Origin: an uncultured Bacteroidota bacterium | Lineage (GTDB): Bacteria; Bacteroidota; Bacteroidia; UBA7662; CAMTUB01 | DNA: 64,000 bases | Assembly (NCBI GenBank): GCA_947084835.1 | Contig: CAMTUB010000008.1 | Location: forward strand, 1,524-65,523 | Direction: 5' to 3' | In this document: positions 24,139-47,942 of the stretch, piece after piece | How the letters are laid out: each line of letters starts with the position of its first letter | How positions within the stretch are numbered: the stretch's first letter is position 1 | Notes under the pieces: generated by a model | What the model saw: the letters and a program-made list of their open reading frames with translations, nothing else | Databases searched by the model: none | What the model was told of the DNA's origin: nothing | Made by a program: the position numbers and the translations under genes

Positions 24139-24178
24139 GATCTTTTTTACAATATCACTAGCTAACGTGTTTGAATAT

Positions 24179-24192
24179 ATGACAACCCTCAT
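24179..24192 (-). promoter_or_regulatory. Candidate Crp/Fnr-type box ATGACAACCCTCAT (TGA-N6-TCA)
   Basis: Near-palindrome centred about 47 nt upstream of the nrdJ ATG. Confidence 0.3.
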
Positions 24193-24239
24193 ACAAAAAA
24201 ATATTCGAAACAAAATCGAAACAAAGCTTCGAAATCTGC

Positions 24240-24959
24240 TTAAATATCAAGGTTACCTGCCAATTTGTTCAGTCCTTTTTCGTTTAAAATCACGATTTTT
24301 TTTCCACGTAAATCCACATAGCCTTCATTTTTCATTTCATACAACATTCGGATAATCGTTTCTAACGAAGTGCCCACAATGCCCGAAATATCTTCGCGTT
24401 TCAACCGCACACTTAAGGTTTCGTTGTCGGATTCGTATCCGTAAATATCTTTCAAAAGCAACAATGCATCTGCCAGCCTTTCTTTTACCAACTTTTGGGC
24501 AATATTTACAATGCGTTCTTCAGCATGCTTTAAATCAAGGGCTAAAATGCGAAGCAGGCGTTGAGCAAATTCAGGCTTTTCTTCTAAAAGTCTTTTTATC
24601 AATTCACTGTTGAAATAGCAAATTTCGCTATCGTCTAACGCAAAAGCAGAGCAGCTATATACATCGCTACCCAATAAAGCACGGTACCCAATAACATCGC
24701 CTTCGCGGGCCAGCCTAACAATTTGCTCTTTGCCATCAGAGCCAACCTTAGATATTTTTACTTTGCCTTTATGTATGCAAAATAGCCCTTGAGGATGTGT
24801 TCCTTCTTTAAAAATAATTTGATTTTTTTTAAACTGAGCAACCCCTTTTTGCGCACTAATTTCTTCCAGTTCAGGTGCATGAAATACCCCTAAAACAGAT
24901 TGGCCTTTGTGTTTGCAATTCGCACAGTCAACCGATGGAACATGCCTTTTGTACATCAT
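24240..24959 (-). CDS. Crp/Fnr-family transcriptional regulator with an N-terminal CxxC
   Basis: 239 aa; N-terminus VDCANCKHKG, cNMP-like beta-roll, C-terminal HTH (REDISGIVGTSLETIIRMLYEM). Confidence 0.85.
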   Translation of the reverse strand: MMYKRHVPSVDCANCKHKGQSVLGVFHAPELEEISAQKGVAQFKKNQIIFKEGTHPQGLFCIHKGKVKISKVGSDGKEQIVRLAREGDVIGYRALLGSDVYSCSAFALDDSEICYFNSELIKRLLEEKPEFAQRLLRILALDLKHAEERIVNIAQKLVKERLADALLLLKDIYGYESDNETLSVRLKREDISGIVGTSLETIIRMLYEMKNEGYVDLRGKKIVILNEKGLNKLAGNLDI

Positions 24960-25026: not shown

Positions 25027-25040
25027 TTGATTTATATCAT
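25027..25040 (-). promoter_or_regulatory. Candidate FNR-type box TTGATTTATATCAT (9/10 to TTGAT-N4-ATCAA)
   Basis: Centred about 74 nt upstream of the Crp/Fnr gene start at 24959. Confidence 0.4.
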
Positions 25041-26066: not shown

Positions 26067-26068
26067 TT

Positions 26069-26794: not shown

Positions 26795-26802
26795 ATCAGT
26801 TT

Positions 26803-33023: not shown

Positions 33024-33944
33024 TTATTGAGCTAAATTTCTGAATTTAACAAAAAGTAAATTGTTTTCGAGGTTGATGTGCATATGCAAATCGGCTTCTA
33101 GTTCTTTAAGCGCATTATATGCAATTACATAACTGTTGCATGCACCATTTGGTGTTTTGTAATTATCGGTAAGGCCACTCATGGCGCGTAGCGCTTCGCC
33201 AGCTCCATCGTGGTCCATTTCCATTTGCGCTAAAATTTCTTGGATATGCGGAGGCTTTTCGCCTGTTTTCTCAAAATGCTTAATTATCGGGAACAACACT
33301 TGCTCTTCTGCTCCCATGTGGTTGGTAAGTTCTAGCATTAAGTCGTCAAAAATATTGAAAACATCAATGGTTTCGGGGTGCTCAATGCCATGCACACGCG
33401 ATACCTTATTCAACAACTGATGTATGGCAGGCATGTTTTCTTTCAAAAACTTATGGTGCGTATCTACAATATAATCGCATAAGAAAGCCAAGTTCCAGTT
33501 AGTAGGGTTATCGCTTTTTAGGTCGTTTACTTTGTCCAGTGCGGCAAGTTCATCGCGTAGTGCAAACACATCTACATCTCTTTCAATGCATGCTTTTTCT
33601 ACCGATTTTTTACCACCGCAGCAATAATCAATGCCGTGTTTTCCAAAAACCATGGCTTTACGAATATCGCTAGCAGCAATTTCGCCAACTGTTTCTGCTT
33701 TTATGTCTTTGCTTAATTTCGAAACCCTTACTAAAGATGTTTCAGGCAACCTTTCGATAAAAGTCCATTTAAACACCGGACCATGTGCCTCGATTAGCGT
33801 ATAAAAAAGGGCTTTGCCATCGCCCGAAATGAAAATATCAAACGATTCTCCGGTTTTTATTTCTGAAAAAAGTTGAAGAATTTTATCTTGTTGATCTGAA
33901 ACACTCATTTGAATAAACGAGCTTGATTCTTTTAAAACAGTCAT
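33024..33944 (-). CDS. ric: Repair-of-iron-centres di-iron protein (ScdA/YtfE/DnrN family) with an N-terminal DUF2249-like extension
   Basis: ScdA_N motif HGIDYCCGG. Hemerythrin-like His/Glu motifs (HHKFLKE, HMGAEEQVLFP, EMDHD). About 85 extra N-terminal residues. Confidence 0.8.
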   Translation of the reverse strand: MTVLKESSSFIQMSVSDQQDKILQLFSEIKTGESFDIFISGDGKALFYTLIEAHGPVFKWTFIERLPETSLVRVSKLSKDIKAETVGEIAASDIRKAMVFGKHGIDYCCGGKKSVEKACIERDVDVFALRDELAALDKVNDLKSDNPTNWNLAFLCDYIVDTHHKFLKENMPAIHQLLNKVSRVHGIEHPETIDVFNIFDDLMLELTNHMGAEEQVLFPIIKHFEKTGEKPPHIQEILAQMEMDHDGAGEALRAMSGLTDNYKTPNGACNSYVIAYNALKELEADLHMHINLENNLLFVKFRNLAQ

Positions 33945-33995: not shown

Positions 33996-34009
33996 CTGAC
34001 CATAGTCAA
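33996..34009 (-). promoter_or_regulatory. Candidate Crp/Fnr-type box; reads TTGACTATGGTCAG on the minus strand
   Basis: TGAC-N4-GTCA palindrome centred about 58 nt upstream of the RIC ATG, in the 76-nt gap after the preceding gene. Confidence 0.4.
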
Positions 34010-34020
34010 GTAAAGAGTAC

Positions 34021-35232
34021 TTATAAATCAGTCTTACGTGTTCTAAAAAATGAAAATACGATGACAAAAATCCCAACCAACATCCCACTCGATGCTAAGA
34101 ATAATAATTTGGGTTGATGGGCTAAACTCCACCAATGAAACGCTTGCATTAATCCTTGCCAAACCAGTATTTTTTCAGAAACAATAAAGCTTACTAAAAA
34201 TGTAAGTATGCCAACGTTGAAAATTCTTGAGTTCGGGAATTGGGTATTTTTCAGCAATAACAAAGCGCTCAAGCTGGCAAAACCCAACAATATCAAATGC
34301 AAATGCGCAATAATAAATACCGGAAAAGCCTCTGCTAAAACAGCCACAACCGGCACCGATGACACCAACTGAAGCATCAATTTTAAAACCAGCGCCAATA
34401 TCAACGAACTTAGGATTAATCGATTTATTAAATTCTTTTTTTGATGTACGATGTATTTAAAAAAGGGTCGGATAAACAAATGAAAAAGCGCATAAAACTG
34501 AATCAGCGCTGCAAAACCACTTAGTATATGCACAACAATGGGTGGATTTAGCCACAAAGTGGAGAGAAAATAGGTCAACAATACAGATACTGCCAACCAC
34601 AAAACATTTCTTTTATCGTGAATCGGTGGCGTAAAAATTTCGCTGTAATGTTGGCGTAAAAGCGCTACAAAAGCAACCACAAGCCATCCGTTAATGATAA
34701 AATGCAAGAAAAAATAAATGCTTAACCGATAAATGGTCGTATGCTTTAAACCCATTGCCATAATTGGGCCTAAACCCCATGCGCCTAAAGTAGAAAGCGC
34801 TAAAAAGAATACCGAACACAGCGCAAGCGTTTTATTTATTGGGCTGATGCCGCTATTTTGCTTTACATCGGTATAAAACCGGATTGCAAACACATAGCTG
34901 CAAATGATGTAAAGCGCTGAAAACGAGATGGAGAAAAAACCGTAGCCCTGCACTGGAAAACCCAACAACATACCCACATTTGCAACCTGAATTGCGTTAA
35001 ACAACTTTGTATATCGATCGTGTTTTTCGAGATGTACAAAGTATCTTAACATAAAAACATAAAGGACTGTAAAAAGCCACCCCAATAAGGCTAAATGCGA
35101 ATGGGCGTGTACCCAAAATCTATATTCGAAAAGTAAAGGATAAAAGTCTAAGGGCAAACCGCGCAAATAAACTCCGATTAAACCAACGATAATAAACCAC
35201 AAAAAAACACAGTTGAGCTTGCTGTTTCCCAT
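34021..35232 (-). CDS. Polytopic membrane protein with HxHxH/HxH-LLG(W/F) motifs; NnrS-like by context only
   Basis: 403 aa, about 12 predicted TM helices. Motifs VHAHSHLALLGW and AHLHLILLGF. Lies next to RIC, a position often held by nnrS in NO regulons. Confidence 0.35.
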   Translation of the reverse strand: MGNSKLNCVFLWFIIVGLIGVYLRGLPLDFYPLLFEYRFWVHAHSHLALLGWLFTVLYVFMLRYFVHLEKHDRYTKLFNAIQVANVGMLLGFPVQGYGFFSISFSALYIICSYVFAIRFYTDVKQNSGISPINKTLALCSVFFLALSTLGAWGLGPIMAMGLKHTTIYRLSIYFFLHFIINGWLVVAFVALLRQHYSEIFTPPIHDKRNVLWLAVSVLLTYFLSTLWLNPPIVVHILSGFAALIQFYALFHLFIRPFFKYIVHQKKNLINRLILSSLILALVLKLMLQLVSSVPVVAVLAEAFPVFIIAHLHLILLGFASLSALLLLKNTQFPNSRIFNVGILTFLVSFIVSEKILVWQGLMQAFHWWSLAHQPKLLFLASSGMLVGIFVIVFSFFRTRKTDL

Positions 35233-35333: not shown

Positions 35334-36740
<1,407 letters not shown>

Positions 36741-36766: not shown

Positions 36767-37741
36767 CTACCCTCCAATAGAAATCATGCTTCTGTTTTTC
36801 ATAGCTGAAGCGTCAATATCGGCATTAATAACTTGTCCGCCTTGCTGAAAATGTTTGGCTTGTATGTTTTCTGAAATGAGAGTAACAATGTCTTTGCCTT
36901 CGCGCAAAGGCGTTAACAAATCGGCTTCACCGTTCGAGAACAGGCAGTTTTTTAGCTTTCCATCGGCAGTTAACCGAATCCGATTGCAGCTGCCGCAAAA
37001 TGGGTGCGACATGGTGGTTATTACTGCAAAAGTTCCTTTTGAATTGGCTATTCTATATTTACGAGAAGTATCGTGCGCTTTGTCTTGCAGCTTTTCAACG
37101 GTGAAAATATTGCTAACCGTTTCTAAAATCTGATCGTGCGATATTACTTTGTGCCATTCCCATTTGTTGCCATCAAACGGCATAAACTCGATAAAACGAA
37201 CATGCAGTGGTAAGTCTTTGGTTAGCGCTACAAAATCAATGATTTCAGCATCGGTTTCGCCTTTCATTACTACCATATTCACTTTTACATGAAAGCCGTT
37301 TTCGAGCAAAAGCAACATGTTGTTATACACTTGCTGAAAATTATTTCTGCGGGTTATGGCGTTAAATTTTGTCTCTTGAAGCGTATCTAAACTCAGGTTT
37401 ACTTTTTTTAACCCTGCATTTTTAAATACATCGATAAAATTATGCACCAAAACACCGTTGGTAGTTATGGCTAACTCTACTGGCAATTTGCCCAACTCAG
37501 CAATAATTTCGGCTGCATCGCGGCAAACAAGCGGTTCTCCGCCCGTTAGCCGAATTTTGGTTACGCCAAGTTCAACGAAAGATCTAGCCAAACTCACCAC
37601 TTCCTCTTTGCGCATAAATAACGCACTTGGGCGGAGTTGTATACCCTCGGCAGGCATGCAATACACGCATCTCAAGTTGCACTTTTCTGTTAAAGAAATG
37701 CGCAGGTAGTTGTGAGTTCGGCCAAATTTATCTTTCAGCAT
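36767..37741 (-). CDS. moaA: GTP 3-prime,8-cyclase (radical SAM)
   Basis: CNLRCVYCMP radical-SAM motif; C-terminal CGSCNRIRLTADGKLKNC auxiliary cluster; ends in GG. Confidence 0.92.
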   Translation of the reverse strand: MLKDKFGRTHNYLRISLTEKCNLRCVYCMPAEGIQLRPSALFMRKEEVVSLARSFVELGVTKIRLTGGEPLVCRDAAEIIAELGKLPVELAITTNGVLVHNFIDVFKNAGLKKVNLSLDTLQETKFNAITRRNNFQQVYNNMLLLLENGFHVKVNMVVMKGETDAEIIDFVALTKDLPLHVRFIEFMPFDGNKWEWHKVISHDQILETVSNIFTVEKLQDKAHDTSRKYRIANSKGTFAVITTMSHPFCGSCNRIRLTADGKLKNCLFSNGEADLLTPLREGKDIVTLISENIQAKHFQQGGQVINADIDASAMKNRSMISIGG

Positions 37742-37936: not shown

Positions 37937-38503
37937 TTATTTAACTAAATATAGCATTAAACTAGCTACATTTCTGGTATAATCGCTTGCAGGCATTTCG
38001 TCTAATTTCTCGCAAAATTTTTCGACAAAGCTCTTTACATGATCTTTAATAAACTTGTTATACGCATCAATTCCAATTTCTGCTTGATCTGTATTTGAAG
38101 CGAGTGCAATTTTAGTTAATAAAATTGAGGTAAACTCCAATTCGTAATTTAACGCATCGGGCGAATCGCCACTTTTTGGGGTTATTCCAAATGCTTTATA
38201 GAAAGCCGATACATCTGTAACCGCTTGCATGTTGTTTGTGCAATAGCTTTCGGTTTGTGGAATTCCTTTTTGGATATATAACCTTGAGTAATCGGCTAAA
38301 ATTTCTTCTGGCAAATAACTTTCGTTAATTGCAGCAATCAATTTTTCTTGCTCATCATTCAACGATTTGGAGGCTAACAATTCCTGAACTAACGTTTTGC
38401 GTTGCGCTAAACTTGCATCATCAGGATAAGAAAAACCCATGCTAGCAATGCGGAACAAATCTGCTAAAACCAGCCAATTATTTTCAATTTGTGTAGTAGT
38501 CAT
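37937..38503 (-). CDS. TorD/NarJ-family molybdoenzyme maturation chaperone
   Basis: 188 aa helical protein between the haem-b subunit gene and tatA. The assignment rests mainly on position and size. Confidence 0.6.
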
Positions 38504-38507
38504 GTTT

Positions 38508-39383
38508 TTACTTTTGGATTTCTAAATCGGTCCACATACTGTAATGCTTACGACCACTAATGTTGTTTTTATTACCATCCCAAACTGCAAAAGCAACTTT
38601 CGACTTTCCACTGGTTAAGTTTGAATCGTTTGGATCTGGAGAGGTTATCGGGCGAACAAACATTACGCGCCACGTGTTCTTATTCCATGACCCCCAAGAG
38701 GTTGCATTCTGATACTTTTGTGTTTCTAACGTACCGTAACCTTCTGCATTTTCTTCTTCGCAAGGAATCTTACGGTTCATTATAGACATTGGGTTTTTAG
38801 AATACGTTCCGTGCATACTTGATGCCGCTTTGCCTCCAGAAACTTGGGCTGCAGAAATATCCGTTGCAAACGCACCTTCAAAGTTGACCACTTGTTCTTG
38901 TCCAGGGTATAAGTCGGTCCAATAGTTTGGATATGCATCTTTAACATCTCTAAATCCAAATTCGATATCTTGTTGCCAAACTGCTTTCCAGTGTATGATA
39001 TGCACTTTGCCGTTTTTATTTCCCATCATAAAACTTGGGGTACCACCACTTGTAACCGGGAATTGTATTGCAACTTGATCGCAGAATTTATCGGCATCTA
39101 CAATCACATCTTTGGTGGCATCATCCCACTCAATCATGATGGCTAAGTTTATACCATCGTTCATGCTTCTAACTCTTACCGAACCAATGCTTGCCATATC
39201 AAGCATTGGTGGGGTAACTTTTTGAGCAAATACAGGCATGGCAACCGGTTCTATAGCATCCCATTCGCCTGAAAAAACTTGTTTTTGAGCGATAGATGTC
39301 GTTTTCTTGGATTTTATAACTCCTTGCGCATACGTAAAGTTTAACGCAATTGAAGCTATTATAAGGGCGAAAATTCTTTTCAT
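38508..39383 (-). CDS. Periplasmic haem-b subunit of a type II DMSO-reductase-family enzyme (EbdC/DdhC/SerC-like)
   Basis: 291 aa with a Sec signal peptide. Sits directly downstream of the Fe-S subunit gene. Soluble beta-rich protein, not a NarI-type membrane protein. Confidence 0.6.
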   Translation of the reverse strand: MKRIFALIIASIALNFTYAQGVIKSKKTTSIAQKQVFSGEWDAIEPVAMPVFAQKVTPPMLDMASIGSVRVRSMNDGINLAIMIEWDDATKDVIVDADKFCDQVAIQFPVTSGGTPSFMMGNKNGKVHIIHWKAVWQQDIEFGFRDVKDAYPNYWTDLYPGQEQVVNFEGAFATDISAAQVSGGKAASSMHGTYSKNPMSIMNRKIPCEEENAEGYGTLETQKYQNATSWGSWNKNTWRVMFVRPITSPDPNDSNLTSGKSKVAFAVWDGNKNNISGRKHYSMWTDLEIQK

Positions 39384-39402
39384 GGCCTTTTATTCTTTCC
39401 GT

Positions 39403-40536
39403 TTATGGGGTGTTGTGTCTGAATGTACCTAGTTGTGTATCTTCGAACGATCTTACAAAAATTGGTTCGGTGAAAGGTACTTTTACTATCACTTCTTTCT
39501 TCTCGTTGTATCCTACTGCAAAATCATCTTCTGCTTTTACAGAGTGCACAATTTTTGGAGTATTCCCAAACATTAAGAACGATGCCAACGATTTAGGATC
39601 GTTTTTCGCATTTTTATAGTTTGTTATCGCTTCATCAACTCCTGGTCCAAACATTTGGTTAAGGAACTCTTTCGGAACGTGAACCGGTGGGATATAATAT
39701 ACGTTTGGTTCTGTACCGTATTGCGGATAAAGCGGCAAAGCAACTTTTTTAATGCGTACTAAATAGTCGATAGGGTTATCTTCTCTTTCTTCGCCTGGCT
39801 TGCTCAAGAAACCTTGCATGCGTATTTTACCGATACAGGTTTGAACGCAACGCGGTTGCTCGCCTTTTTCGATAAGTGGGTAACATCCAATACATTTTTC
39901 AGAAACACGCGTGATCATGTTATAAAATGTCTTTTTGTATGGACACGCTTTTACGCACTCTTTATACCCGCGGCAACGCGATTGGTCGATAAGTACAATG
40001 CCGTCTTCAGGGCGTTTGTAAATCGCTTTTCTTGGACAAGCTGCTACGCAACCCGGATATGTACAGTGATTACAAATACGTGCAAGATAAAACATCCAAA
40101 CATCGTGTATTCCGTTAAAAAATGCACCTTTGTCTACTGTTCCTGAGCACTCATCTTCGCCAATATTTGGGAAAGCGTAATCTCTTTCTTCGGGTCTCCA
40201 ACCTTTGGCTAGTTCTCCATTAGGTTTATCTTCAAAAATGGTTTTTCCTTTGTAAACGCCTGTTTTTTTATCCCAAATTTGGTTAGGCATTTCTTTCAGA
40301 AGATTTACGTCCCAACGCATGGGGTATGAGCCGTAAGGTTTGGTTTCGACATTGTTCCAGAACATGGTTTCTTGCCCTTTACCGGCAGTCCACGTGGTTT
40401 TACATGCAACCGTACAGGTTTGACATGCGATACATTTGTTGGTGTCGAATATATATGCGATCTGTTTGTTCGGACGGTTTTCCTCGTAAGGATATTCCAT
40501 CTCACGCTTTAGATGCCAATTTTTAACTTTTGCCAT
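39403..40536 (-). CDS. narH: Fe-S (beta) subunit of a Nar/type II DMSO-reductase-family enzyme
   Basis: 377 aa with four Cys clusters: CIACQTCTVACK, CNHCTYPGCVAACP, CRGYKECVKACP, CIGCYPLIEKGEQPRCVQTC. Confidence 0.85.
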   Translation of the reverse strand: MAKVKNWHLKREMEYPYEENRPNKQIAYIFDTNKCIACQTCTVACKTTWTAGKGQETMFWNNVETKPYGSYPMRWDVNLLKEMPNQIWDKKTGVYKGKTIFEDKPNGELAKGWRPEERDYAFPNIGEDECSGTVDKGAFFNGIHDVWMFYLARICNHCTYPGCVAACPRKAIYKRPEDGIVLIDQSRCRGYKECVKACPYKKTFYNMITRVSEKCIGCYPLIEKGEQPRCVQTCIGKIRMQGFLSKPGEEREDNPIDYLVRIKKVALPLYPQYGTEPNVYYIPPVHVPKEFLNQMFGPGVDEAITNYKNAKNDPKSLASFLMFGNTPKIVHSVKAEDDFAVGYNEKKEVIVKVPFTEPIFVRSFEDTQLGTFRHNTP

Positions 40537-40569
40537 TGTCTTTTCTTTTAATGTGCTTTCTACTCTTAA

Positions 40570-43500
40570 CTATGCCTTTTTTACGAATCCGCCTTTGATG
40601 TAGTTTAAGAAATCTTCTGATTCGTACGTTGGGCGGATTTTCTTTTTAGCCGCTTCCCACAATCCTTTTCCATCTAAACCGCCTTTTTCGGCAAATTCAA
40701 TTTTAACGAATGACTCGCGTGGTGCACCGGTTGCGCCATGAACATCAATCTCAAACCCTTTATCGATACCTTGTCCGAAATTATTTTTACGGATTAATGA
40801 ATCTGTTAATAAGGTTGGTTTTAGCCAAGCACGTGTACAACTTTGATGCGAACCTCTGCGAAACATAGCCTGATAGTTTGTAAACTTGTTTTTAGCTAAA
40901 CCATTTGCATTTTCTTCGGTTGCTTTTACCGAACCATAAGTTGCTCCGTACGCATTGTGCCACATACGCGTTATGCCTCTTGGTGTTCCAGGGTAGTATC
41001 GAGCGCGGCATAATAAACGGGCAAGTTTGTATTCTTCGCTGTTTTTGTCTTTCTGCCAACCTCTGTACGGGCGATCTTCTGGATCTGCATCAATCCAAAC
41101 ATAATCTCCATCTTCAACGCCTAATTCTTTGGCATCTTTCGGGTTGATATCTACATATAATTCTGAGATATACGGATTACGTTTATCGTGGCGGTGCATG
41201 TCGCCAAAAGGACCAAACCAAACTGCAACGATATCTGTGTCAATTGGCGTGGTGTGCGCTCCATGACGATATTTAGGCGTATGGAATATGAATTTAAAAT
41301 CTTTGTTTGCTGCTGTTAATGGGTGTTGGGTTTTCTTTAAATCTGCCCAAGATTTTACCACGTGGCGACTTTGGCGCACATCACCAGAAAGATTATCGAT
41401 AGAAACCCCGTAGTCTTGTGGCGATTTAGGTTTAATTGCTGCGTGCGGTTTCCCTACAATGACATTCGGTTCATAGAACGTTGAATCAATAGGCTCGCGG
41501 TGAACTACCATATTTTCTCCTGAATCTCTGAACTCAATTTCATCGCGGTAAAACTCAAGTCTGCCCGATTTGGTATACCATTGTTTGTCTTCTTTATCTT
41601 GTTCGTACCCTACAAATTTTGGCGTGGTACGGGTCATCAATAAAGCTGGAATTCCTTTTTTAGCTTTCTCTTCTAAATCAGCGAATTTATACCCTTTTGT
41701 TGCTTGGCTATTGTCGATAATACGCTGTAAGTAAACGTCAACACGGTTTTCTCCTACAAATTTGAAGTAATCTTTAAAACGGTTATCGCCTGTTAAATCG
41801 CCAAAAGCATCGCACAATCCAGCAAGAATTTCAATATCCGCTTTGGTATCAAATATCCGCTTTAAAGGAGTGCGAGGATAGATGTATAAGAAAGGATTGG
41901 TAACTGAAATTGTAGCATCAGGATGCTTAAACTCACCCCAAGAATCTACCGGAAATACGATATCAGAATATTCGCAAGTACCTGTCCACCACCACTCTAA
42001 ACACGTAATAAACTCAACTTTTGGATAAGCGTTTACTACTGCCTCATAGTGCCCCTTGTTATTTGCAAGCAACGAATTTCCATTACTAACTAAAACCGAC
42101 TTAGTAGGCGTAGGCATGTGCGTGCTGCCCGTCATGTTGGTTTTGCCCATTCTTAACGGCCTGTCGCTGTTGTTAAAGAAGTGAGCTGATTCGTAACTGA
42201 AATACTTTTTAAGGGTTGCCGGCTTATTTTCTTCTAACTGAATATTAAACGGATCTTCAATAATGTAGGTTGGCAATCCCGACATGTATGCTCCGCGGTA
42301 ATTCCCTGCGTAGCTTCCAACGTTTCCGCCTACGCGTCCAATGTTTTGCGTAAGTGCTGCTAAGAAAAATACTGCACGGTCTTTCAAGTCGTTGTTAAAA
42401 AATTGATTAGGCCCCATTCCCATTGCAAAAAGTGTTTTGCCTGCATTTTTAGCAATTTCTTTGGCAATTTCTTCAATTCCTTTAACTGGCGCCCACGTTA
42501 ATTCTTCAACCGTTTTAGGATCGTAATTTTCCATCACGTATTCCGACATCATGTCGAAAACAGTACGTACTTCTACGGTATTTCCATCGGCTAATTTTAT
42601 GCTGAATTTACCTTCTAATGCAGGCATAAACCCTTTTTTAACCATGTTATTACCATAGTCATCGCGATTTACAGGAACTGCAGTTTTTTTAACGGTATCA
42701 TAAATCATGAAATCGCCCCATTTATCTCTCATTTTTTGAGTGATGAAAGGCATGTTTTGTTTTAATCCGCCCGGTGCTTTTTCGCCATCTTTTACAACTT
42801 TGATGTAACCCGAAATTTCGCCTAATTTATAGGATGCATCTACCTCGTTTGGACGTAAGAATTCGTTGGTATCCATTCTAACCAACAAAGGCATATCCGT
42901 ATATTTCTTTAGGTAATCCGCATTGTATTTTTTATCGCGGATAATAACGTGTGAAAATCCTAATGCTAATGCTGGAGTAACTCCAGGACGAACGATAAGT
43001 ACATTATCTCCTTTGTTTGCTGTTGCAGAATATTCGCACGCGATTACGGTAACTTTTGCTCCTTTAATTCTTGCTTCTGTTAGCCAGTGCGACTCGGGCA
43101 TTTTGGTAGTAATCCAGTTCATACCCCACACAATTATGTGGTTTGAATGCTCTACGCAAGATAAATCCCAATCTACAGTTTGTGTACCTGTTACCATTGG
43201 ATGCCCAGGAGGTAAGTCGGTGTGCCATGCATAACTATCCCAACAGCGAGCAGCTTTTGCTTTATCGGCACCTACATTATTTATTTTAGCATCTAACAAT
43301 GCTAAAGAATTTGCTAATCTGTTTACTCCAAAAATTCGGGTAATACCTAACGGTGCCATTCCACCACGGAATTTTAACGTTTGAACGCCTTTTTCGTGCA
43401 TGGCTTCAACCATATCGTGGTCGTAGCCTTGTTTCAATAGCTTTTCAGAGCCTTCTTTTCCGTTATATGCGCGAGCGATATTATCTAACGCTTTTGCTGA

Positions 43501-44052
43501 AAACTCAAATGCTTCTTCCCAAGTTAGGCGTAAGAATGGCTCCTTACCGCGTTGCATATACATTGCCGGAACTCTTCCGTCTAATTCGCGAGGCATTCCA
43601 TCTTTCAACCACTTTAAGAAACCTTCGCGGATAACTGGATGTTTAACTCTACGGTCTCCGTAAAATCTACGTGCCAATGCAAGGCCTTTTTGGCAGCATC
43701 TTGGTTCCCAACGTGCCGTGGCTTTGTTGCCGTATAAATCCTCAGCTTGTCCATAACCATAACTAGGTGCAATACGCACCACTGTATCGTTTTTGACATG
43801 TGCTTTTAACAAACAGTTATGGGTATCGTTAGGAGCGCATAAAAATGTAAACTCACTGTCATAATTCCATAAATCTCTGTAGGTTTTTTCCCACTCACGA
43901 TCGGGGTATGCTGCTAATGGATTCGTAATATCCAATGGTTCAAAGAAGCTGAACGCTTCAGCGAATCCCCCCAATTGCATTTTGGATAGTATCACCCCCC
44001 CTGTCAATGACAGTGAAGCCGATTTTAAAAAGTCTCTTCTATTCGTTCCCAT
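40570..44052 (-). CDS. narG: Tat-exported molybdopterin catalytic (alpha) subunit, NarG/NxrA-like type II DMSO-reductase family
   Basis: 1160 aa. Twin-arginine signal [12 protein letters not shown]0-type motif C-APN-D-THN-C...EPRCC. HTDLPPG aligns with the YCDLPPA segment that carries the Mo-ligand Asp of E. coli NarG. Confidence 0.8.
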
Positions 44053-44121: not shown

Positions 44122-44135
44122 ATGATGGGTGTCAT
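44122..44135 (-). promoter_or_regulatory. Candidate Crp/Fnr-type box ATGATGGGTGTCAT
   Basis: TGA-N6-TCA near-palindrome centred about 76 nt upstream of the narG-like ATG. A second half-site-like element, GTTATTTGTCAA, lies at 44146-44157. Confidence 0.35.
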
Positions 44136-44188: not shown

Positions 44189-45547
44189 TTAAGCGGCTGG
44201 CAGCTTCTTATTTGCTTTGCTATCAAATAGAAAGGCATAAATAACCAATAAAATACCAACAAATATACCTAGACCGGATAGGCCAACAATAGAGTAATAA
44301 GACCGAATTGTATTCATCCAAACAGCATGATTTTGCTCAAATGGATAATTGGGTTGAGCTCCTTTTATCCAGCCAGAAACTATGATGGAAACCCAAAAAA
44401 CTGCTAAAGAACTGTTAAAAAGCCAAAAACCTACGCGAATGGATTTCCTATTGACATCGACTCTATCTCTAAAAATATAAGCAAGTGATGCAAACAAAAT
44501 GCTTGTGTTAATTCCAATTGTAGTGCCCATGGAATGGGCAACCGTTATGTGTGTGCCGTGGGTAAATAAATTAATGTATGGAATTGACATAAGTACCGCC
44601 AAAACAAGATTCAGAAAAATCCAAATATCTGCAGAGGTCATAAAACGCACCGAAAAATCATAGTTTAGCAATTCTGATTTCGATAAGGTTTTTCGCCATT
44701 GTAAAATCATGTTTCCAATCAGAATCCATTCCGTCATGCTAATAGCATAAGATATCATCTTAACATAATGTGAGGCAGGAACAATATAAGTATGATGTCC
44801 CCAATTAAACATGAGGTTGGTTAATCCCAAAAAATAGAAAAGGAAACTGGTTTTAGAAAAACCGATGGTTGAATCTTTTTTAATTTTCGACATCAAAAAT
44901 ATACCTGTACCATACACCAACATATTCCACGAGCCAACCATTGCACCCAATGCTTTCCATTGTATGGCAACATCGCGCACCGGGTTGTTGCCAACCTCTG
45001 GTATCATCCATAAATAAGATTCTATGTACGTATATGCAAAGGCTATAAAACCTGTTCCCCACATCCATACATAAACGGGATATTTTGAAAAGCTAAAGCC
45101 TGTTGTTTTAAAGAAATTAAAAAGTGTAAAAAGCCACCCTCCTAAAACCAAAACACCTAGAACTGGTGGGTATTCTAAATATTCTCTACCTCCAAACCAG
45201 CCTAAAAACTGGCAGAACATTATCAGCAAAAATGCGCTACCATATAATAAAGTATGCGCTAAAATTGCTTTAACTGAAAACCACTCTCGCTTTACAATAC
45301 CGGGCAGATAAATAAACACTCCACCAATTGCTGCCATAAAAATCCATCCAATAACAAAACTCACATGCAATGGGCGTAAAGATTGAAAAGGAATCCATTT
45401 TAGCACTTCAGCATAACTTTTACTGTATGCTAAACTCCCAATTAATCCAAAAATCATCCCGAAAACAAGAGCTCCTAAACCGCAATGAATCCAAAATTTG
45501 CCTATTTTATCGGTTGAAGATTCAACTATTTTTGTTTGCGATTCCAT
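44189..45547 (-). CDS. Haem-copper-oxidase superfamily subunit I homologue (NorB/CcoN-like) with a non-canonical active site
   Basis: 452 aa, 12 TM helices. H61 (LRPLHVSF), HH251-252 (NWGHHTY) and H338 (TVAHSMG) are collinear with H60, H258/259 and H347 of cNOR. No His anywhere in residues 99-250. Confidence 0.7.
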   Translation of the reverse strand: MESQTKIVESSTDKIGKFWIHCGLGALVFGMIFGLIGSLAYSKSYAEVLKWIPFQSLRPLHVSFVIGWIFMAAIGGVFIYLPGIVKREWFSVKAILAHTLLYGSAFLLIMFCQFLGWFGGREYLEYPPVLGVLVLGGWLFTLFNFFKTTGFSFSKYPVYVWMWGTGFIAFAYTYIESYLWMIPEVGNNPVRDVAIQWKALGAMVGSWNMLVYGTGIFLMSKIKKDSTIGFSKTSFLFYFLGLTNLMFNWGHHTYIVPASHYVKMISYAISMTEWILIGNMILQWRKTLSKSELLNYDFSVRFMTSADIWIFLNLVLAVLMSIPYINLFTHGTHITVAHSMGTTIGINTSILFASLAYIFRDRVDVNRKSIRVGFWLFNSSLAVFWVSIIVSGWIKGAQPNYPFEQNHAVWMNTIRSYYSIVGLSGLGIFVGILLVIYAFLFDSKANKKLPAA

Positions 45548-45559
45548 ATTAATTGCTGT

Positions 45560-45970
45560 CTATTCACTTTCAGTTATAGTATTTCCCAAAACAAATTTTG
45601 GTCTTTTATTGTATGTAGAGGCAGAAGAGTCAATATTTGTTAAATAGGCTATCAAATCAGAAACTTCAGGCTCACTAAAGTTGAATTTGGGCATAATAAG
45701 CCCTCCATTTTGAATAAAAGCACGAGTATAAGGGACTCCTTTTTGAGAAATCACTTTGGTTAGTTCAGGGCCGAGATATCCGCCCAGCCCATAAATTTGA
45801 TGGCAAGAAAAACAGTTGTTCTTCTGCCAAATTTTTCTGCCGTTACTAACAGAACTTTCGCTTAAGGCAGCACTGTGTTTAATATTGCGTGTTGCATTGG
45901 TGTAAATCCACCATGAATAGGGCAAAAAAGCCACTATTAAAACAGATAAAACTTTTTTTGGCCAATGCAT
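45560..45970 (-). CDS. Membrane-anchored mono-haem cytochrome c (NorC/CcoO-like partner)
   Basis: 136 aa; N-terminal TM helix; CFSCH haem motif followed by GGYLGPELT. Lies immediately upstream of the HCO-like gene. Confidence 0.7.
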   Translation of the reverse strand: MHWPKKVLSVLIVAFLPYSWWIYTNATRNIKHSAALSESSVSNGRKIWQKNNCFSCHQIYGLGGYLGPELTKVISQKGVPYTRAFIQNGGLIMPKFNFSEPEVSDLIAYLTNIDSSASTYNKRPKFVLGNTITESE

Positions 45971-45981
45971 TTTTGTTATCT

Positions 45982-46012
45982 AAAAAACAAGCCCTCATTT
46001 TTTAATGAAGGC
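45982..46012 (-). terminator. Rho-independent terminator after the soluble cytochrome c gene
   Basis: Minus strand: GCCTTCATT-AAAA-AATGAGGGC followed by TTGTTTTTT. It ends about 12 nt before the ATG at 45970. Confidence 0.6.
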
Positions 46013-46035
46013 TATAAAAAAAGGTTTGGGAAAAG

Positions 46036-46392
46036 TTATTTTTTTGCTCCGCTCTGAGATTTCACATAAGCCATTACAGCTTTGATATCAGCATCGGACA
46101 TTGACTCGAATGGAGGCATTGGTATTTGATTAAATTGATTAAAAATGGCAACCGCTTTTGGATCTTTTGCTTTTACCATAGCTTGAGAATTTTTAATCCA
46201 TTTAATTATCCATGCTTCAGGATATTTAGCGCCAACTCCTTTTAAATCTGGGCCAACAGTATTGCCTTTCCCAATTGTATGGCAACTTTGGCAATTATCC
46301 TCGTATAATTTTTTGCCTTGCTGAGCATATGTATTTGATGCAAATAATAACACTAAAGCAACAACTACAAGTCTAAAAAATGTTTTGTTCAT
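46036..46392 (-). CDS. Class I c-type cytochrome, periplasmic
   Basis: Signal peptide from the ATG at 46392 (MNKTFFRLVVVALVLLFASNTYAQ); CQSCH motif. The ORF-track start at 46437 adds 15 unlikely residues. Confidence 0.8.
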   Translation of the reverse strand: MNKTFFRLVVVALVLLFASNTYAQQGKKLYEDNCQSCHTIGKGNTVGPDLKGVGAKYPEAWIIKWIKNSQAMVKAKDPKAVAIFNQFNQIPMPPFESMSDADIKAVMAYVKSQSGAKK

Positions 46393-46439
46393 AATGGTAA
46401 TTTCTGCTTCAAAAGTATATCTGTGAAACAAAACCAATT

Positions 46440-46453
46440 ATGACCCAAGTCAG
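46440..46453 (-). promoter_or_regulatory. Candidate Crp/Fnr-type box; reads CTGACTTGGGTCAT on the minus strand
   Basis: TGAC-N4-GTCA palindrome centred about 54 nt upstream of the ATG at 46392. Confidence 0.4.
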
Positions 46454-46480: not shown

Positions 46481-46924
46481 TTAAAAATAGAGTTTTTTAA
46501 TTTTTTTGATAGGCCCAACACAATACTCTTGATGGCACGATATGCATGAAGTTACTACAGCATTAAAACTAGCCGTATCTGCTTTTGTTTGGGTGGCTAA
46601 TCTGTTTTTTACAGCTTCCCAACGACTGGCACGTTCAAAAAAATCGGGCACTAAAACAGCAGAATCTGTTGGAGTAAGCACCCAAAAAGCTTCGCTAGGC
46701 AAGCTATCCGCAATAAAACTGCCACGTTCCATGGTATGTTTGGTAGCCATCATTTGGTCAAACATCTGGCGCATCGAAATTGCCATGGGTGCTCTTTTAA
46801 GCCCAACCACTACTTCTGGCTTTACACATTCTTTCTCAGAAACTACTTTTTTATTATCGCAAGAAGCCATAAAAAACGCCCCACTAAAAAGTAGGGCGAT
46901 ATAAAAACGTTTAATAAACTTCAT
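46481..46924 (-). CDS. Lipoprotein with a single C-terminal CxxCH, possibly a class II (cytochrome c-prime/c556-like) cytochrome
   Basis: 147 aa; lipobox (FFMASC). The only haem motif, CISCH, lies 17 residues from the C-terminus, the class II arrangement. Confidence 0.4.
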   Translation of the reverse strand: MKFIKRFYIALLFSGAFFMASCDNKKVVSEKECVKPEVVVGLKRAPMAISMRQMFDQMMATKHTMERGSFIADSLPSEAFWVLTPTDSAVLVPDFFERASRWEAVKNRLATQTKADTASFNAVVTSCISCHQEYCVGPIKKIKKLYF

Positions 46925-47407
46925 TTACTGTATTAAAACGCCCTTTGCTTCAAAAGTAAGTGCTGTTTCTGGAGCTACAATAGAATCAATTTGAGCTTGA
47001 GTTTTTCCTGCATCTTTTGCGTAATGCTTTAAATCTTCAAGTGAGGTAGTTTCCATTCTTGCAATACCATGTAAAATTGCTCTTTTCCCAGAAGCATCTT
47101 TGGGTACAAAAAAACCATAGTCTTTAAACGAAACACGAACGGTTTCTCCGTTATTTAATTCCATTTTCATCCAGCAGCCTTTTTTCTGGCAACATTCTTT
47201 AATGGTTCCTTCAACTGTTAAATTATCCAAAGAATCAGCGCCACCCATCATTGATACTAAATCAGCAATAGGTTTTGCGTTTGCAGTGTCAATTTTCTCT
47301 CCAAAATACTCTCCTACTTGTGTGGTAGATTCTGCATTTTTATCTGCTGAGTTACATGCTGAAATTGAAAGCGTTATGCCAAGGGCAATTATTAGGTTTT
47401 TATTCAT
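46925..47407 (-). CDS. DUF4920-like lipoprotein
   Basis: 160 aa; lipobox (SISAC); CCQKKGCWM motif. Its stop abuts the next start (46925/46924). Confidence 0.6.
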   Translation of the reverse strand: MNKNLIIALGITLSISACNSADKNAESTTQVGEYFGEKIDTANAKPIADLVSMMGGADSLDNLTVEGTIKECCQKKGCWMKMELNNGETVRVSFKDYGFFVPKDASGKRAILHGIARMETTSLEDLKHYAKDAGKTQAQIDSIVAPETALTFEAKGVLIQ

Positions 47408-47480: not shown

Positions 47481-47942
47481 TTACATTTCTAACGACTCTA
47501 AAATCTGCTCAGTGTGGTTTTTTGTTGATACTTTAGTTATGTGCGAAATAATTATTCCCTTTTCGTCTATAACAAATGTTTCTCTCTTGATGCCTTGATA
47601 CGCTACTCCAAACATGGATTTCTCTCCCCAAACGCGGTAATCGTTTACTGCTTTTTTGTCTTCATCAGCAAGTAAATCGAAAGGCAAATCGTATTTGGTT
47701 GCAAATTTTTCGTGCGATTTTACCCCATCCGTACTAACACCGATAATGGAGAACCCTTTTTCTTGCAACAAGGCATAATTATCGCGAAGATTACATGATT
47801 GTGTAGTACACCCTGGCGTATTATCTTTCGGATAAAAATATAACACCAATTTTTTGCCTTCAAAATCACCCAAGCTAATTTCTTTTCCGTGCTGATTTAA
47901 ACCCGAAAAATCCGGAGCTTGTTTTCCTATCATGTTGCTCAT
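47481..47942 (-). CDS. bcp: Thioredoxin-dependent thiol peroxidase (peroxiredoxin Bcp)
   Basis: 153 aa; YFYPKDNTPGCTTQ peroxidatic Cys motif. Confidence 0.9.
   Translation of the reverse strand: MSNMIGKQAPDFSGLNQHGKEISLGDFEGKKLVLYFYPKDNTPGCTTQSCNLRDNYALLQEKGFSIIGVSTDGVKSHEKFATKYDLPFDLLADEDKKAVNDYRVWGEKSMFGVAYQGIKRETFVIDEKGIIISHITKVSTKNHTEQILESLEM

What the first reader, a model, noticed from the sequence alone, without database searches (positions are those of the whole stretch)
44189..45970. NorC/NorB-like pair whose haem-copper-oxidase subunit lacks a canonical active-site histidine and has HxM instead of HxH
Seen directly: the 452-aa subunit I homologue keeps H61 (helix II), HH251-252 (NWGHHTY) and H338. 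These line up with cNOR NorB H60, H258/H259 and H347, and with cbb3 CcoN H60, H257/H258 and H345. There is no histidine at all between residues 99 and 250. The helix-VI ligand of the non-haem metal (H207 in both reference enzymes) therefore cannot exist, and the corresponding segment reads IQWKALGAMVGSW. The helix-X motif is TVAHSMG rather than GHxH, which puts Met340 where the second low-spin haem ligand should be. E273 (MTEWIL) aligns with the cNOR-type Glu280, but the HLWVEG glutamates are absent. No norQ, norD or norE genes are present. Inference: this is either a divergent NO or O2 reductase with a two-His metal site and His/Met haem b, or a redox module that is no longer a reductase. It could, for example, act as an electron entry or sensor unit for the adjacent periplasmic molybdoenzyme, which has no membrane anchor of its own.
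Basis: partly seen in the sequence, partly recalled or inferred. Interest (0 to 1): 0.75.

Follow-up and report, generated by a model that had tools for sequence, protein, structure and literature searches.

The report
NorB-like oxidoreductase with remodelled active site
This is an intact two-gene membrane enzyme from a large Bacteroidota family, usually annotated as nitric oxide reductase, that has lost two of the four residues normally holding the catalytic metal, so what it really reduces is still unknown.

Summary
The 452-aa protein (44189-45547, minus strand) has the 12-helix haem-copper oxidoreductase fold. It keeps His61, His251/His252 and His338. It has Gly201 at the helix-VI metal-ligand histidine, lacks the cNOR Glu211, and has Met340 at the second haem-b ligand. 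This is not decay. The same residues are invariant or nearly so across 65 family representatives, thousands of homologues and at least 578 species genomes, nearly all Bacteroidota. A 136-aa membrane-anchored cytochrome c gene is almost always adjacent. A sister subfamily has His198/Asp201/Ala273 where this one has Lys198/Gly201/Glu273.

Recurrent neighbours are Crp/Fnr and Rrf2 regulators, the Fe-S repair protein RIC, class II ribonucleotide reductase and nos genes. They share a TGAY-N4-RTCA palindrome.

My best reading is a cytochrome-c-dependent reductase of an anaerobic/NO-stress regulon, probably a low-activity NO reductase with a His/His/Glu metal site.

The adjacent molybdoenzyme is an NXR-type periplasmic nitrate/nitrite oxidoreductase. 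Its link to this protein is not conserved.

The clade is probably the uncharacterised "N2O red" family that Murali et al. 2024 mention in one sentence. I could not verify that.

The parts
44189..45547 (-). Catalytic subunit, 452 aa, with the 12-helix haem-copper oxidoreductase fold. It belongs to a Bacteroidota clade nearest to cNOR NorB.
   Evidence: Pfam COX1, 95 bits. The family profile scores 99.5 bits against 3o0r_B NorB and 57-65 bits against cbb3 CcoN. AF2 model pLDDT 84, pTM 0.89. Foldseek TM 0.83-0.85 to cNOR and cbb3.
45560..45970 (-). Small subunit, 136 aa: an N-terminal membrane helix and one haem-c domain (C53xxC56H57). Met93 in the conserved MP motif is the likely distal ligand.
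   Evidence: Pfam Cytochrom_C and Cytochrome_CBB3. Found upstream of the HCO gene in 77 of 80 loci. NC..CHQ.GLGG.GP.LT and G...MP are conserved in at least 90% of 78 sequences.
45365..45367 (-). Codon His61, proposed first axial ligand of the low-spin haem b (cNOR His60).
   Evidence: 64/65 in subfamily 1, 24/24 in subfamily 2.
44528..44536 (-). Codons His338-Ser339-Met340. His338 is the proximal ligand of the high-spin haem (cNOR His347). Met340 sits where the second haem-b His (cNOR His349) should be.
   Evidence: M340 59/65 and 24/24.
44792..44797 (-). Codons His251-His252, the two retained ligands of the non-haem metal (cNOR His258/His259).
44945..44962 (-). Codons Q196-W197-K198-A-L-G201 in helix VI. 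Gly201 occupies the position of the missing metal-ligand His (cNOR/cbb3 His207). Lys198 is invariant.
   Evidence: The sister subfamily has His198 and Asp201 here.
44729..44731 (-). Codon Glu273 (cNOR Glu280), the candidate replacement carboxylate ligand. It is Ala in the sister subfamily.
   Evidence: The role as a ligand is inference.
45182..45184 (-). Codon Glu122 in the GGREYLE loop, which aligns with the cNOR Ca2+-site Glu135.
46036..46437 (-). Monohaem cytochrome c with a signal peptide, the likely electron donor. The real start is probably the ATG near 46392.
   Evidence: Pfam. Public gene call of 118 aa. Sequence.
46441..46452 (.). TGACTTGGGTCA palindrome (minus-strand reading) about 50 bp upstream of the cytochrome c ATG. 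Probable Crp/Fnr-type operator for the cytochrome c, norC-like and HCO genes.
   Evidence: The motif is about 30-fold enriched in upstream regions of the 80 related loci.
44122..44135 (.). ATGATGGGTGTCAT palindrome between the HCO stop codon and the NxrA-like start codon. It suggests a separate but co-regulated transcription unit.
   Evidence: the only exact match in the window. No terminator-like site on the minus strand in this gap.
24240..24959 (-). Crp/Fnr-family regulator with an N-terminal CxxC. A TGATTTATATCA palindrome lies at 25028-25039 just upstream. Candidate regulator of the regulon.
   Evidence: Pfam. Best NCBIfam model is Fnr, below its cut-off. Sequence. Site.
33024..33944 (-). 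RIC/ScdA-type iron-sulfur cluster repair di-iron protein, a regulon member. Palindrome at 33997-34008 upstream.
   Evidence: TIGR03652, 226.5 bits against a cut-off of 204.7. Site. RIC lies within 6 kb of the HCO gene in 14 of 76 loci.

Best explanation
The pair encodes a two-subunit, cytochrome-c-dependent membrane reductase. It belongs to a compact Bacteroidota clade of the haem-copper oxidoreductase superfamily that branches next to cNOR.

Proposed electron path: a periplasmic cytochrome c passes electrons to the haem c of the 136-aa subunit, then to a low-spin haem b ligated by His61 and Met340 (which should raise its potential), then to a high-spin haem on His338 facing a remodelled non-haem metal site.

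That site keeps His251 and His252 but has lost the helix-VI His and the cNOR Glu211. I propose that Glu273 completes a 2-His-1-carboxylate site, with Lys198 and Asn208 lining the pocket.

The operon belongs to a Crp/Fnr-type anaerobic/NO-stress regulon. The enzyme most likely reduces NO to N2O at a modest rate, for detoxification or as the NO step of truncated denitrification.

Shown: fold, residue mapping, family-wide conservation, partner gene, gene neighbourhoods and the shared palindrome. Inferred: cofactor content, the role of Glu273 and Lys198, the substrate, and which protein binds the palindrome.
For: Fold and nearest relatives.

Conservation of the unusual residues in 65 representatives, and a compact family (336 hits among 1.84 billion representatives).

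Partner cytochrome c in 77 of 80 loci, and some members fused to FixO-like and cytochrome c domains.

Neighbours: a Crp/Fnr regulator, an Rrf2 regulator or RIC lies within 6 kb in 40 of 76 loci, and nosZ/nosDFY in 10. RIC sits directly upstream in one operon in L011, L019, L026 and L071.

Shared palindrome TGAY-N4-RTCA: 182 sites against 5.7 +/- 2.3 in shuffles. It lies upstream of Crp, RIC, cytochrome c, MbnP, RNR and norC-like genes. Window sites lie upstream of the cytochrome c, NxrA-like, RIC and Crp genes.

Physiology: Cloacibacterium caeni and C. normanense carry family members with all the signature motifs. [quoted passage not shown] Cloacibacterium cnorB is expressed under microoxic conditions and repressed at high O2 (PMC11879220).

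Precedents from Murali et al. 2024 (PMC11214002): gNOR has replaced one metal-ligand His with Asp and is still considered NO-reduction competent, and a His/Met low-spin haem is proposed for nNOR.
Against: Two of the four cNOR FeB ligands are absent, and no NorB model in NCBIfam recognises the protein.

The only physiological datum points to weak NO reduction, and I did not verify that strain CB-01's 'cNor' is this gene.

Many carriers are reported to lack nitrite reductase, so NO would have to come from outside the cell.

The ligand role of Glu273 rests on a two-clade covariation (one evolutionary event) and on homology to cNOR Glu280, not on coordinates.

MbnP/MbnH-like copper-acquisition genes and a CcoI-like ATPase beside some members could mean the metal is copper, not iron.

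Murali et al. suggest a different substrate, N2O, for what is probably this family.
Confidence: 0.5

Rival explanations
1. It is a haem-based, membrane-bound nitrous oxide reductase, the enzyme behind the sulfide- and acetylene-insensitive N2O reduction of Flexibacter canadensis. Murali et al. 2024 suggested this for an HCO family 'closely related to cNOR'.
For: PMC11214002 names such a family ('N2O red', 293 GTDB genomes). This clade fits the description: it is nearest to cNOR, lacks the active-site Tyr, is almost only in Bacteroidota including Sphingobacteriales, and is of similar size. The pair sits directly downstream of nosZ-nosDFY in several loci. A remodelled active site would be expected for a new substrate.
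Against: At least 10 of 76 loci carry NosZ genes next to it, so it is not a substitute for NosZ there. The tightest partners (RIC, Rrf2, Crp/Fnr) point to NO, not to inert N2O. In Cloacibacterium, N2O respiration is attributed to NosZ clade II (PMC11168931). I found no named Solitalea/Flexibacter homologue. The paper's datasets are not held, so I could not confirm that the two families are the same.
Confidence: 0.12
2. It catalyses another reduction at a haem/two-His site, such as O2, H2O2, peroxynitrite or nitrite. It would serve microaerobic scavenging or nitrosative/oxidative defence and not NO respiration.
For: The His/Met haem b implies a higher-potential electron path. The invariant Tyr254, Lys198 and Asn208 differ from cNOR. 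Neighbours include peroxidase-like CCP_MauG proteins, a Bcp peroxiredoxin-like ORF (47481-47942; so named in my script; public call AhpC-TSA/Redoxin) and cbb3 clusters. Expression is microoxic (PMC11879220). NO reduction in CB-01 is weak (PMC11168931).
Against: The His-Tyr cross-link needed for four-electron O2 reduction cannot form: the His is absent and the position of the cbb3 cross-link Tyr251 falls in the LTNLMF segment (by eye at Leu245). No direct evidence exists for any of these substrates.
Confidence: 0.15
3. It is a non-catalytic redox module: a membrane electron-entry or sensor unit that serves the adjacent periplasmic NXR-type molybdoenzyme.
For: In the window the HCO gene is followed 136 bp later, on the same strand and with no terminator-like site, by the NxrA-like operon, which encodes no membrane anchor. 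Both units carry the same type of palindrome. Other Mo enzymes follow the HCO gene in L018 and L039.
Against: The NXR-type enzyme is near a family member in only 2 of the 80 other loci, and there it is on the opposite strand. The Mo enzymes in L039 and L018 are of a different type. Carriers such as Cloacibacterium are reported to lack nitrate reductase. The high-spin haem ligand, two metal ligands and the pocket residues are under strict conservation, which a pure electron wire would not need.
Confidence: 0.06
4. It is a decaying copy of an ordinary cNOR or cbb3 gene.
For: Canonical ligands are missing in this one sequence.
Against: The ORF is intact. The same substitutions are fixed in thousands of homologues at 45-50% identity, with 67 invariant columns among 27 diverse sequences. 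The AF2 model is confident.
Confidence: 0.01

Closest known systems
cNOR (NorCB), e.g. Pseudomonas aeruginosa 3O0R and Roseobacter denitrificans 4XYD
   Same: Best sequence and structure match. It has a 12-helix subunit with haem-b and haem-b3 sites, the HH pair of helix VII, Glu280 (E273 here), the GRE(F/Y)LE Ca2+-site loop and the THGT motif before helix X. It also has a membrane-anchored monohaem cytochrome c partner encoded just upstream.
   Different: The FeB ligands His207 and Glu211 are absent (Gly201, no counterpart). Glu215 is Asn208. The second haem-b ligand is Met, not His. The cytochrome c subunit lacks the long NorC/FixO loop after CxxCH (judged by eye from memory of the NorC sequence, not aligned with a tool). 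There are no norQ/norD genes. No NCBIfam NorB model matches.
cbb3 oxidase subunit CcoN (C-family), e.g. P. stutzeri 3MK7
   Same: Same fold (TM about 0.84). The helix-VI segment aligns without gaps (QWWYGHNAVG against QWKALGAMVG). Some family members are fused to FixO-like and cytochrome c domains. NCBI's pipeline names these proteins 'cbb3-type cytochrome c oxidase subunit I'.
   Different: No third CuB histidine, no cross-link Tyr251 equivalent, His/Met in place of bis-His haem b, and no CcoO/CcoP/CcoQ genes.
'N2O red' HCO family of Murali, Hemp, Gennis et al. 2024 (PMC11214002)
   Same: That family is described only as closely related to cNOR, lacking the active-site Tyr and linked to a Bacteroidetes organism (Flexibacter canadensis), with 293 GTDB genomes. 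This clade matches all of that and is of comparable size.
   Different: I could not test identity: the datasets and HMMs are not held and no named Solitalea homologue was found. The accessible text gives no active-site description, and no biochemistry exists.
gNOR, nNOR and NOD (non-canonical HCO families in the same paper)
   Same: They are precedents for the two oddities. gNOR has replaced one metal-ligand His (with Asp). nNOR is proposed to have a His/Met low-spin haem.
   Different: gNOR and nNOR derive from the B-family and have cupredoxin-type subunits. NOD derives from the fused qNOR. This clade lies in the C/cNOR branch with a cytochrome c partner, and the missing His is replaced by Gly. 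Only the sister subfamily has Asp there.

Membership tests
Haem-copper oxidoreductase superfamily (Pfam COX1) | 12-helix subunit I fold that scores above the Pfam threshold | tested here: met
   95.3 bits against a cut-off of 34.8. AF2 model with 12 long helices. Foldseek TM 0.83-0.85 to NorB and CcoN.
cNOR NorB | FeB ligated by three His (H207, H258, H259) and Glu211 | tested here: not met
   H207->G201, E211 has no counterpart, only H251/H252 are kept.
cNOR NorB | Bis-His low-spin haem b (H60/H349) and His-ligated haem b3 (H347) | tested here: not met
   H61 and H338 are present, but H349->M340.
cNOR NorB | Conserved glutamates E215 and E280, and Ca2+-site E135 | tested here: inconclusive
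   E280->E273 and E135->E122 are kept. E215->N208.
cNOR NorB | Recognition by curated NorB models, and norQ/norD accessory genes | tested here: not met
   No NCBIfam family matches. No AAA or VWA genes appear among the window ORFs I annotated or among the recurrent neighbours.
cNOR NorC partner | Membrane-anchored monohaem cytochrome c encoded next to the catalytic subunit | tested here: met
   136 aa, N-terminal hydrophobic helix, CxxCH, conserved MP. Present in 77 of 80 loci. Only generic cytochrome c Pfam models match.
cbb3 oxidase CcoN | CuB with three His, and a His207-Tyr251 cross-link | tested here: not met
   G201 at His207. The position of Tyr251 falls in the LTNLMF segment (by eye at Leu245).
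cbb3 oxidase CcoN | ccoO, ccoP (and ccoQ) genes in the operon | tested here: not met
   Only the 136-aa cytochrome c is present. A separate CcoNO-type gene lies further downstream in L056 and L071.
'N2O red' HCO family (Murali et al. 2024) | Clade in the C/cNOR branch without the active-site Tyr | tested here: met
   The profile scores best against cNOR, then cbb3. No Tyr at the cross-link position.
'N2O red' HCO family (Murali et al. 2024) | Match to the authors' HMM or tree leaves, and presence in Flexibacter (Solitalea) canadensis | not testable with these tools
   Supplements are not held. No Solitalea name appears among the listed homologues.
gNOR | His-to-Asp replacement at a metal ligand, a cupredoxin-type subunit II, and B-family ancestry | tested here: not met
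   Gly, not Asp, at position 201. Cytochrome c partner. Nearest to cNOR/cbb3.
NOD / qNOR | Single fused polypeptide of about 750 aa with an N-terminal NorC-like domain | tested here: not met
   452 aa with a separate cytochrome c. No qNOR sequence hit at E<=1. qNOR appears only as a weaker fold match.

The most novel reading that the evidence does not exclude
This Bacteroidota clade, together with its His198/Asp201 sister clade, is a new catalytic type within the haem-copper superfamily. Its metal site would be built from two His plus a carboxylate supplied from a different helix. Its physiological reaction would not be the NO reduction it is annotated for. It could, for example, be the long-sought non-NosZ, acetylene-insensitive membrane N2O reductase, or another nitrogen-oxide or peroxide reaction. 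In that case metagenomic 'norB' counts for Bacteroidota, and the predicted N2O-source potential of N2O-mitigation strains such as Cloacibacterium CB-01, would be wrong.
Probability: 0.25. Interest if true: 0.85.

Novelty: new variant of a known kind. Interest (0 to 1): 0.58.

Why it matters
Public pipelines name these genes 'nitric oxide reductase subunit B' (JGI) or 'cbb3-type cytochrome c oxidase subunit I' (NCBI). Surveys that count Bacteroidota norB genes therefore probably include them (inference). Yet the proteins fail the defining active-site tests of both enzymes.

Bacteroidota are reported to make up the majority (53%) of the nosZ-carrying, nir-lacking 'terminator' genomes in one 61,293-genome survey (PMC12569097). 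A carrier of this family, Cloacibacterium, is being applied to fields to cut N2O emissions. Whether the enzyme makes N2O, consumes it or does something else bears directly on N2O budgets.

Biochemically it would show how far the haem/non-haem binuclear site can be rebuilt: His replaced by Gly, a possible carboxylate from helix VIII, and a His/Met haem b.

It also offers a concrete candidate for testing a proposal about the membrane-bound N2O reductase of Flexibacter canadensis, reported in 1992.

Tried and rejected
1. Pseudogene or decay: rejected, because the residues are conserved family-wide.

2. A compensating His from another helix: none in this subfamily. It exists only in the sister subfamily, as His198.

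3. A conserved functional link to the molybdoenzyme: rejected from the contexts of 80 loci.

4. Classical FNR box TTGAT-N4-ATCAA in the window: 7 matches against 5.9 expected, so not enriched.

5. Enrichment of TGAY-N4-RTCA upstream of norC-like genes compared with other intergenic DNA of the same loci: not significant (P=0.11). The neighbours share the motif, and the test against shuffles is strong.

6. Confirming that this clade is Murali's 'N2O red' family: the supplements are not held, the preprint adds nothing, and a search seeded with a Sphingobacteriaceae member listed no Solitalea protein.

7. Ducluzeau et al. 2014 is not held.

8. Other literature searches for a description of this active site found nothing.

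9. Contexts of the sister subfamily were uninformative apart from UbiD, U32-peptidase and SCP2 genes in L087 and L088.

10. Measuring distances between Lys198, Glu273 and His251/His252 in the AF2 model: the coordinates are not exposed.

11. The organism of the window could not be named.
Full report
**Observation**

The window carries two co-directional ORFs on the minus strand. One is a 136-aa protein (45560-45970) with one CxxCH motif. The other is a 452-aa protein (44189-45547) that matches Pfam COX1 at 95 bits.
- Its histidines are at 21, 61, 98, 251, 252, 260, 330, 333, 338 and 407, so there is none between 99 and 250.
- I aligned a profile of 27 homologues to solved structures and made a wider alignment with P. 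aeruginosa NorB, R. denitrificans NorB and P. stutzeri CcoN.
- Both give the same map: cNOR His60->His61, His207->Gly201, Glu211->no counterpart, Glu215->Asn208, His258/His259->His251/His252, Glu280->Glu273, His347->His338, His349->Met340.
- The Ca2+-site Glu135 corresponds to Glu122 in a conserved GGREYLE loop.
- Helix VI aligns without gaps to cbb3 (QWWYGHNAVG against QWKALGAMVG). Trp197 matches the first Trp of the cbb3 QWW motif, so the register is secure and Gly201 sits exactly at the ligand position.

**A family, not an accident**

- A word-indexed search returned at least 2,724 homologues, mostly 44-53% identical.
- A scan of one genome per species found at least 578 loci, nearly all Bacteroidota.
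- An exhaustive phmmer search of 1.84 billion cluster representatives found only 336 hits at E<=0.001 and 115 at E<=1e-30. The clade is therefore compact and well separated from the mass of cNOR and cbb3 sequences.
- Among 27 diverse members, 67 columns are invariant, including His61, His251, His252, His330, His333, His338, Met340, Glu273, Gln196-Trp197-Lys198, Gly201 and Asn208.
- Among 90 full-length representatives two subfamilies appear.
- Subfamily 1 (n=65, includes the window) has Lys198, Gly201, Asn244 and Glu273.
- Subfamily 2 (n=24, 25-30% identical) has His198, Asp201, Gly/Ser244 and Ala273.
- Both keep His61, His251/His252, His338 and Met340.
- Positions 198, 201 and 273 switch together. 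I read this as a sign that they line one site. It is a single evolutionary event, so the evidence is weak.
- Subfamily 2 could rebuild a 3-His-plus-carboxylate site like that of cNOR. Subfamily 1 can offer at most His/His/Glu273.

**Fold and nearest relatives**

- The family profile scores 99.5 bits (E=1.7e-27) against P. aeruginosa NorB and 57-65 bits against the best-matching cbb3 CcoN chains. It does not hit qNOR at E<=1.
- An AF2 model built on the alignment is confident (pLDDT 84, pTM 0.89, 12 long helices).
- The model superposes on cNOR and cbb3 subunits with TM 0.83-0.85. qNOR, A-type and B-type oxidases match less well.
- No NCBIfam model recognises the protein.

**Partner and electron path**

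- The 136-aa cytochrome c gene lies upstream in 77 of 80 loci. Two of the three exceptions, L053 and L057, are contigs cut off at that point.
- Its conserved core is NC..CHQ.GLGG.GP.LT...G...MP. By eye it is much shorter after CxxCH than NorC or FixO.
- Some family members are about 800 aa and are fused to FixO-like and cytochrome c domains.
- In the window a further signal-peptide cytochrome c (46036-46437) lies just upstream.
- I infer this path: periplasmic cytochrome c, then haem c, then haem b (His61/Met340), then high-spin haem (His338) and the non-haem site.

**Genomic context**

I clustered all ORFs of the 80 loci and named the recurrent ones. Only the cytochrome c gene is constant.

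Counts within 6 kb of the HCO gene, out of 76 loci:

| Neighbour | Loci |
|---|---|
| Crp/Fnr regulators | 21 |
| Rrf2 regulators with three Cys | 14 |
| RIC/ScdA Fe-S repair protein | 14 |
| NadA / NadB | 13 / 11 |
| nosZ-nosL-nosDFY genes | 10 |
| Class II ribonucleotide reductase | 8 |
| MbnP plus a MauG-like peroxidase | 8 |
| CcoI-like P-type ATPase with a cbb3 cluster | 8 |

- Forty of the 76 loci have Crp/Fnr, Rrf2 or RIC within 6 kb.
- RIC is directly upstream in the same operon in L011, L019, L026 and L071.
- A palindrome, TGAY-N4-RTCA, occurs 182 times in 83.7 kb of upstream intergenic DNA of these loci, against 5.7 +/- 2.3 in shuffles.
- It precedes Crp (17/23), RIC (9/14), cytochrome c (8/8), MbnP (7/7), RNR (4/5) and norC-like genes (15/43).
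- In seven loci two sites lie 22 bp apart.
- In the window four of the five matches lie upstream of minus-strand genes of this cluster: the cytochrome c gene ahead of the pair (46441-46452), the NxrA-like gene (44122-44135), RIC (33997-34008) and Crp (25028-25039).
- The pair therefore belongs to an anaerobic/NO-stress type regulon. Which regulator binds the palindrome, and what signal it senses, are inferences.

**The molybdoenzyme**

- The 1,160-aa protein downstream is not a classical NarG. It matches Kuenenia nitrite oxidoreductase subunit A over its full length (844 bits, E=1e-252).
- It is followed by NxrB-like, haem-b EB_dh (NxrC-like) and NarJ-like genes and by MoaA. This is a periplasmic NXR-type enzyme, presumably working here as a nitrate reductase.
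- A close homologue (71% identity) is near a family member only in L044 and L046, on the opposite strand about 4 kb away.
- L018 and L039 have a different Mo enzyme after the HCO gene.
- These look like anaerobic-respiration islands, not a dedicated complex.

**Literature**

- Murali et al. [quoted passage not shown] They cite work on Flexibacter canadensis and count 293 GTDB genomes.
- The accessible text gives no active-site description, and the datasets are not held.
- This clade fits on branch position, phylum and size. I put the identity at about 0.7. A search for a named Solitalea member failed.
- The same paper gives precedents: gNOR replaces a ligand His with Asp, and nNOR has a His/Met low-spin haem said to raise the potential by about 150 mV.
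- Cloacibacterium caeni (WP_213189771.1) and C. normanense carry family members with all the signature motifs.
- For Cloacibacterium strain CB-01, Hiis et al. [quoted passage not shown]
- Cloacibacterium cnorB is expressed under microoxic conditions and repressed at high O2, in genomes reported to lack nir and nar genes (PMC11879220).
- I did not verify that the CB-01 gene is this one. No canonical cNOR surfaced in my Cloacibacterium searches.

**Mechanism and rivals**

- Best reading (0.5): a cytochrome-c-dependent reductase with a His/Met haem b and a His/His/Glu273 non-haem site. It reduces NO slowly, for detoxification or in truncated denitrification, and is switched on with RIC and the other regulon members.
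- N2O reduction (0.12) is what the only published comment suggests. It fits the nos adjacency. However, NosZ is present beside the pair in at least 10 loci, and the tightest partners point to NO.
- Another reaction, such as O2, peroxide, peroxynitrite or nitrite reduction (0.15), cannot be excluded. Four-electron O2 reduction is unlikely without the His-Tyr cofactor.
- A redox module for the NXR-type enzyme (0.06) and gene decay (0.01) are poorly supported.
- The remaining probability is unassigned.

**Novelty**

- The protein fails defining tests for cNOR and for cbb3, so I do not file it under either.
- It is a variant of the cytochrome-c-linked C/cNOR branch. It has probably been catalogued, but it has not been described at residue level or characterised.
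- New here, as far as the held literature shows:
  - the residue-level definition of the site;
  - the sister subfamily with the switched triad;
  - the regulon motif;
  - the link to cultured Cloacibacterium;
  - the finding that the molybdoenzyme link is incidental.

**Limits**

- I had no coordinates for distance checks.
- There is no genome-wide co-occurrence analysis with nir, nor and nos genes.
- The family identity with 'N2O red' is unverified.
- All functional statements are inference from sequence, context and one indirect physiological report.

Noticed in passing
window 37937-44052 (minus strand), plus moaA at 36767-37741: The adjacent 'NarG-like' cluster is an NXR-type periplasmic enzyme in a Bacteroidota genome. 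The Tat-signal alpha subunit matches Kuenenia nitrite oxidoreductase NxrA at 844 bits over its full length. It comes with NxrB-like, EB_dh haem-b (NxrC-like) and NarJ-like genes. Homologues at 71% identity occur in L044 and L046.
   Followed up: partly
L001 4968-9502; also L002, L003, L010, L011, L014, L019, L020, L026; window 35334-36728: In nine related loci two PLP beta-eliminating lyase genes sit between the norC-like and HCO genes, with spacers of 3-50 bp in L001. One is a close homologue (74-80% identity) of the window's tyrosine phenol-lyase. The other, checked in L001, is tryptophanase-like. L003 and L020 also have a cystathionine gamma-synthase-family gene there. The window's own lyase passes the tyrosine phenol-lyase equivalog cut-off (778.7 bits against 720.7) and lies further downstream in the same gene string. 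I have no explanation for this.
   Followed up: partly
80 related loci; window 46441-46452, 44122-44135, 33997-34008, 25028-25039: A palindrome, TGAY-N4-RTCA, often extended to ATGAY-N4-RTCAT, is about 30-fold enriched in upstream regions. It marks a regulon of Crp/Fnr, RIC, cytochrome c, MbnP, class II RNR and norC-like genes. In seven loci two sites lie exactly 22 bp apart.
   Followed up: partly
window 25062-28197 (minus strand); L003, L011, L014, L020, L026 downstream of the HCO gene: An MbnP-like protein and a MauG/CCP-like dihaem peroxidase (an MbnH-like copper-acquisition pair) lie here, in the window next to an alginate-export-type porin. They directly follow the HCO gene in several loci and always carry the palindrome (7/7). 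This might mean the enzyme, or NosZ in the same cells, needs copper.
   Followed up: no
proteins P0203, P0208, P0215 and others; loci L083, L086, L087, L088: A sister subfamily (25-30% identity) has His198, Asp201 and Ala273 where this family has Lys198, Gly201 and Glu273. It also has a cytochrome c gene of about 135 aa (134-164 aa in the loci examined) upstream. In L087 and L088 it follows two U32-peptidase genes, UbiD and an SCP2 gene, which resemble the O2-independent ubiquinone pathway genes.
   Followed up: partly
proteins P0130, P0143, P0159, P0181: Family members of about 800 aa are fused at the C-terminus to FixO-like and cytochrome c domains.
   Followed up: no
window 34021-35232 (minus strand): A 403-aa polytopic membrane protein with several His-rich helix motifs lies between the tyrosine phenol-lyase and RIC genes. 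It has no Pfam or NCBIfam match.
   Followed up: no
window 46481-47407 (minus strand): Upstream of the cytochrome c gene lie a 147-aa putative lipoprotein with a single C-terminal CxxCH and no Pfam match, and a DUF4920 protein. Neither recurs in the 80 related loci.
   Followed up: no
window 45990-46013 (minus strand): A terminator-like hairpin with a T-run sits in the 65-bp gap between the upstream cytochrome c gene and the norC-like gene. It could attenuate read-through into the pair.
   Followed up: no
L039 3790-8096 and L018 7880 onward: In two loci the HCO gene is followed by a TtrB/NrfC-like Fe-S protein. In L039 a 935-aa molybdopterin oxidoreductase with an Fe4S4 domain comes next, a different type from the window's NXR-like enzyme.
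   Followed up: no
L044 17518-19332 and 9 other loci: A conserved protein of about 604 aa with no Pfam match recurs near the pair. It carries the regulon palindrome upstream in 8 of 10 cases.
   Followed up: no
window 20899-24213 (minus strand): A class II (B12-dependent) ribonucleotide reductase lies next to the Crp/Fnr gene. The same gene follows the HCO operon in several loci and usually carries the palindrome. This fits an anaerobic or NO-resistant replacement function.
   Followed up: no
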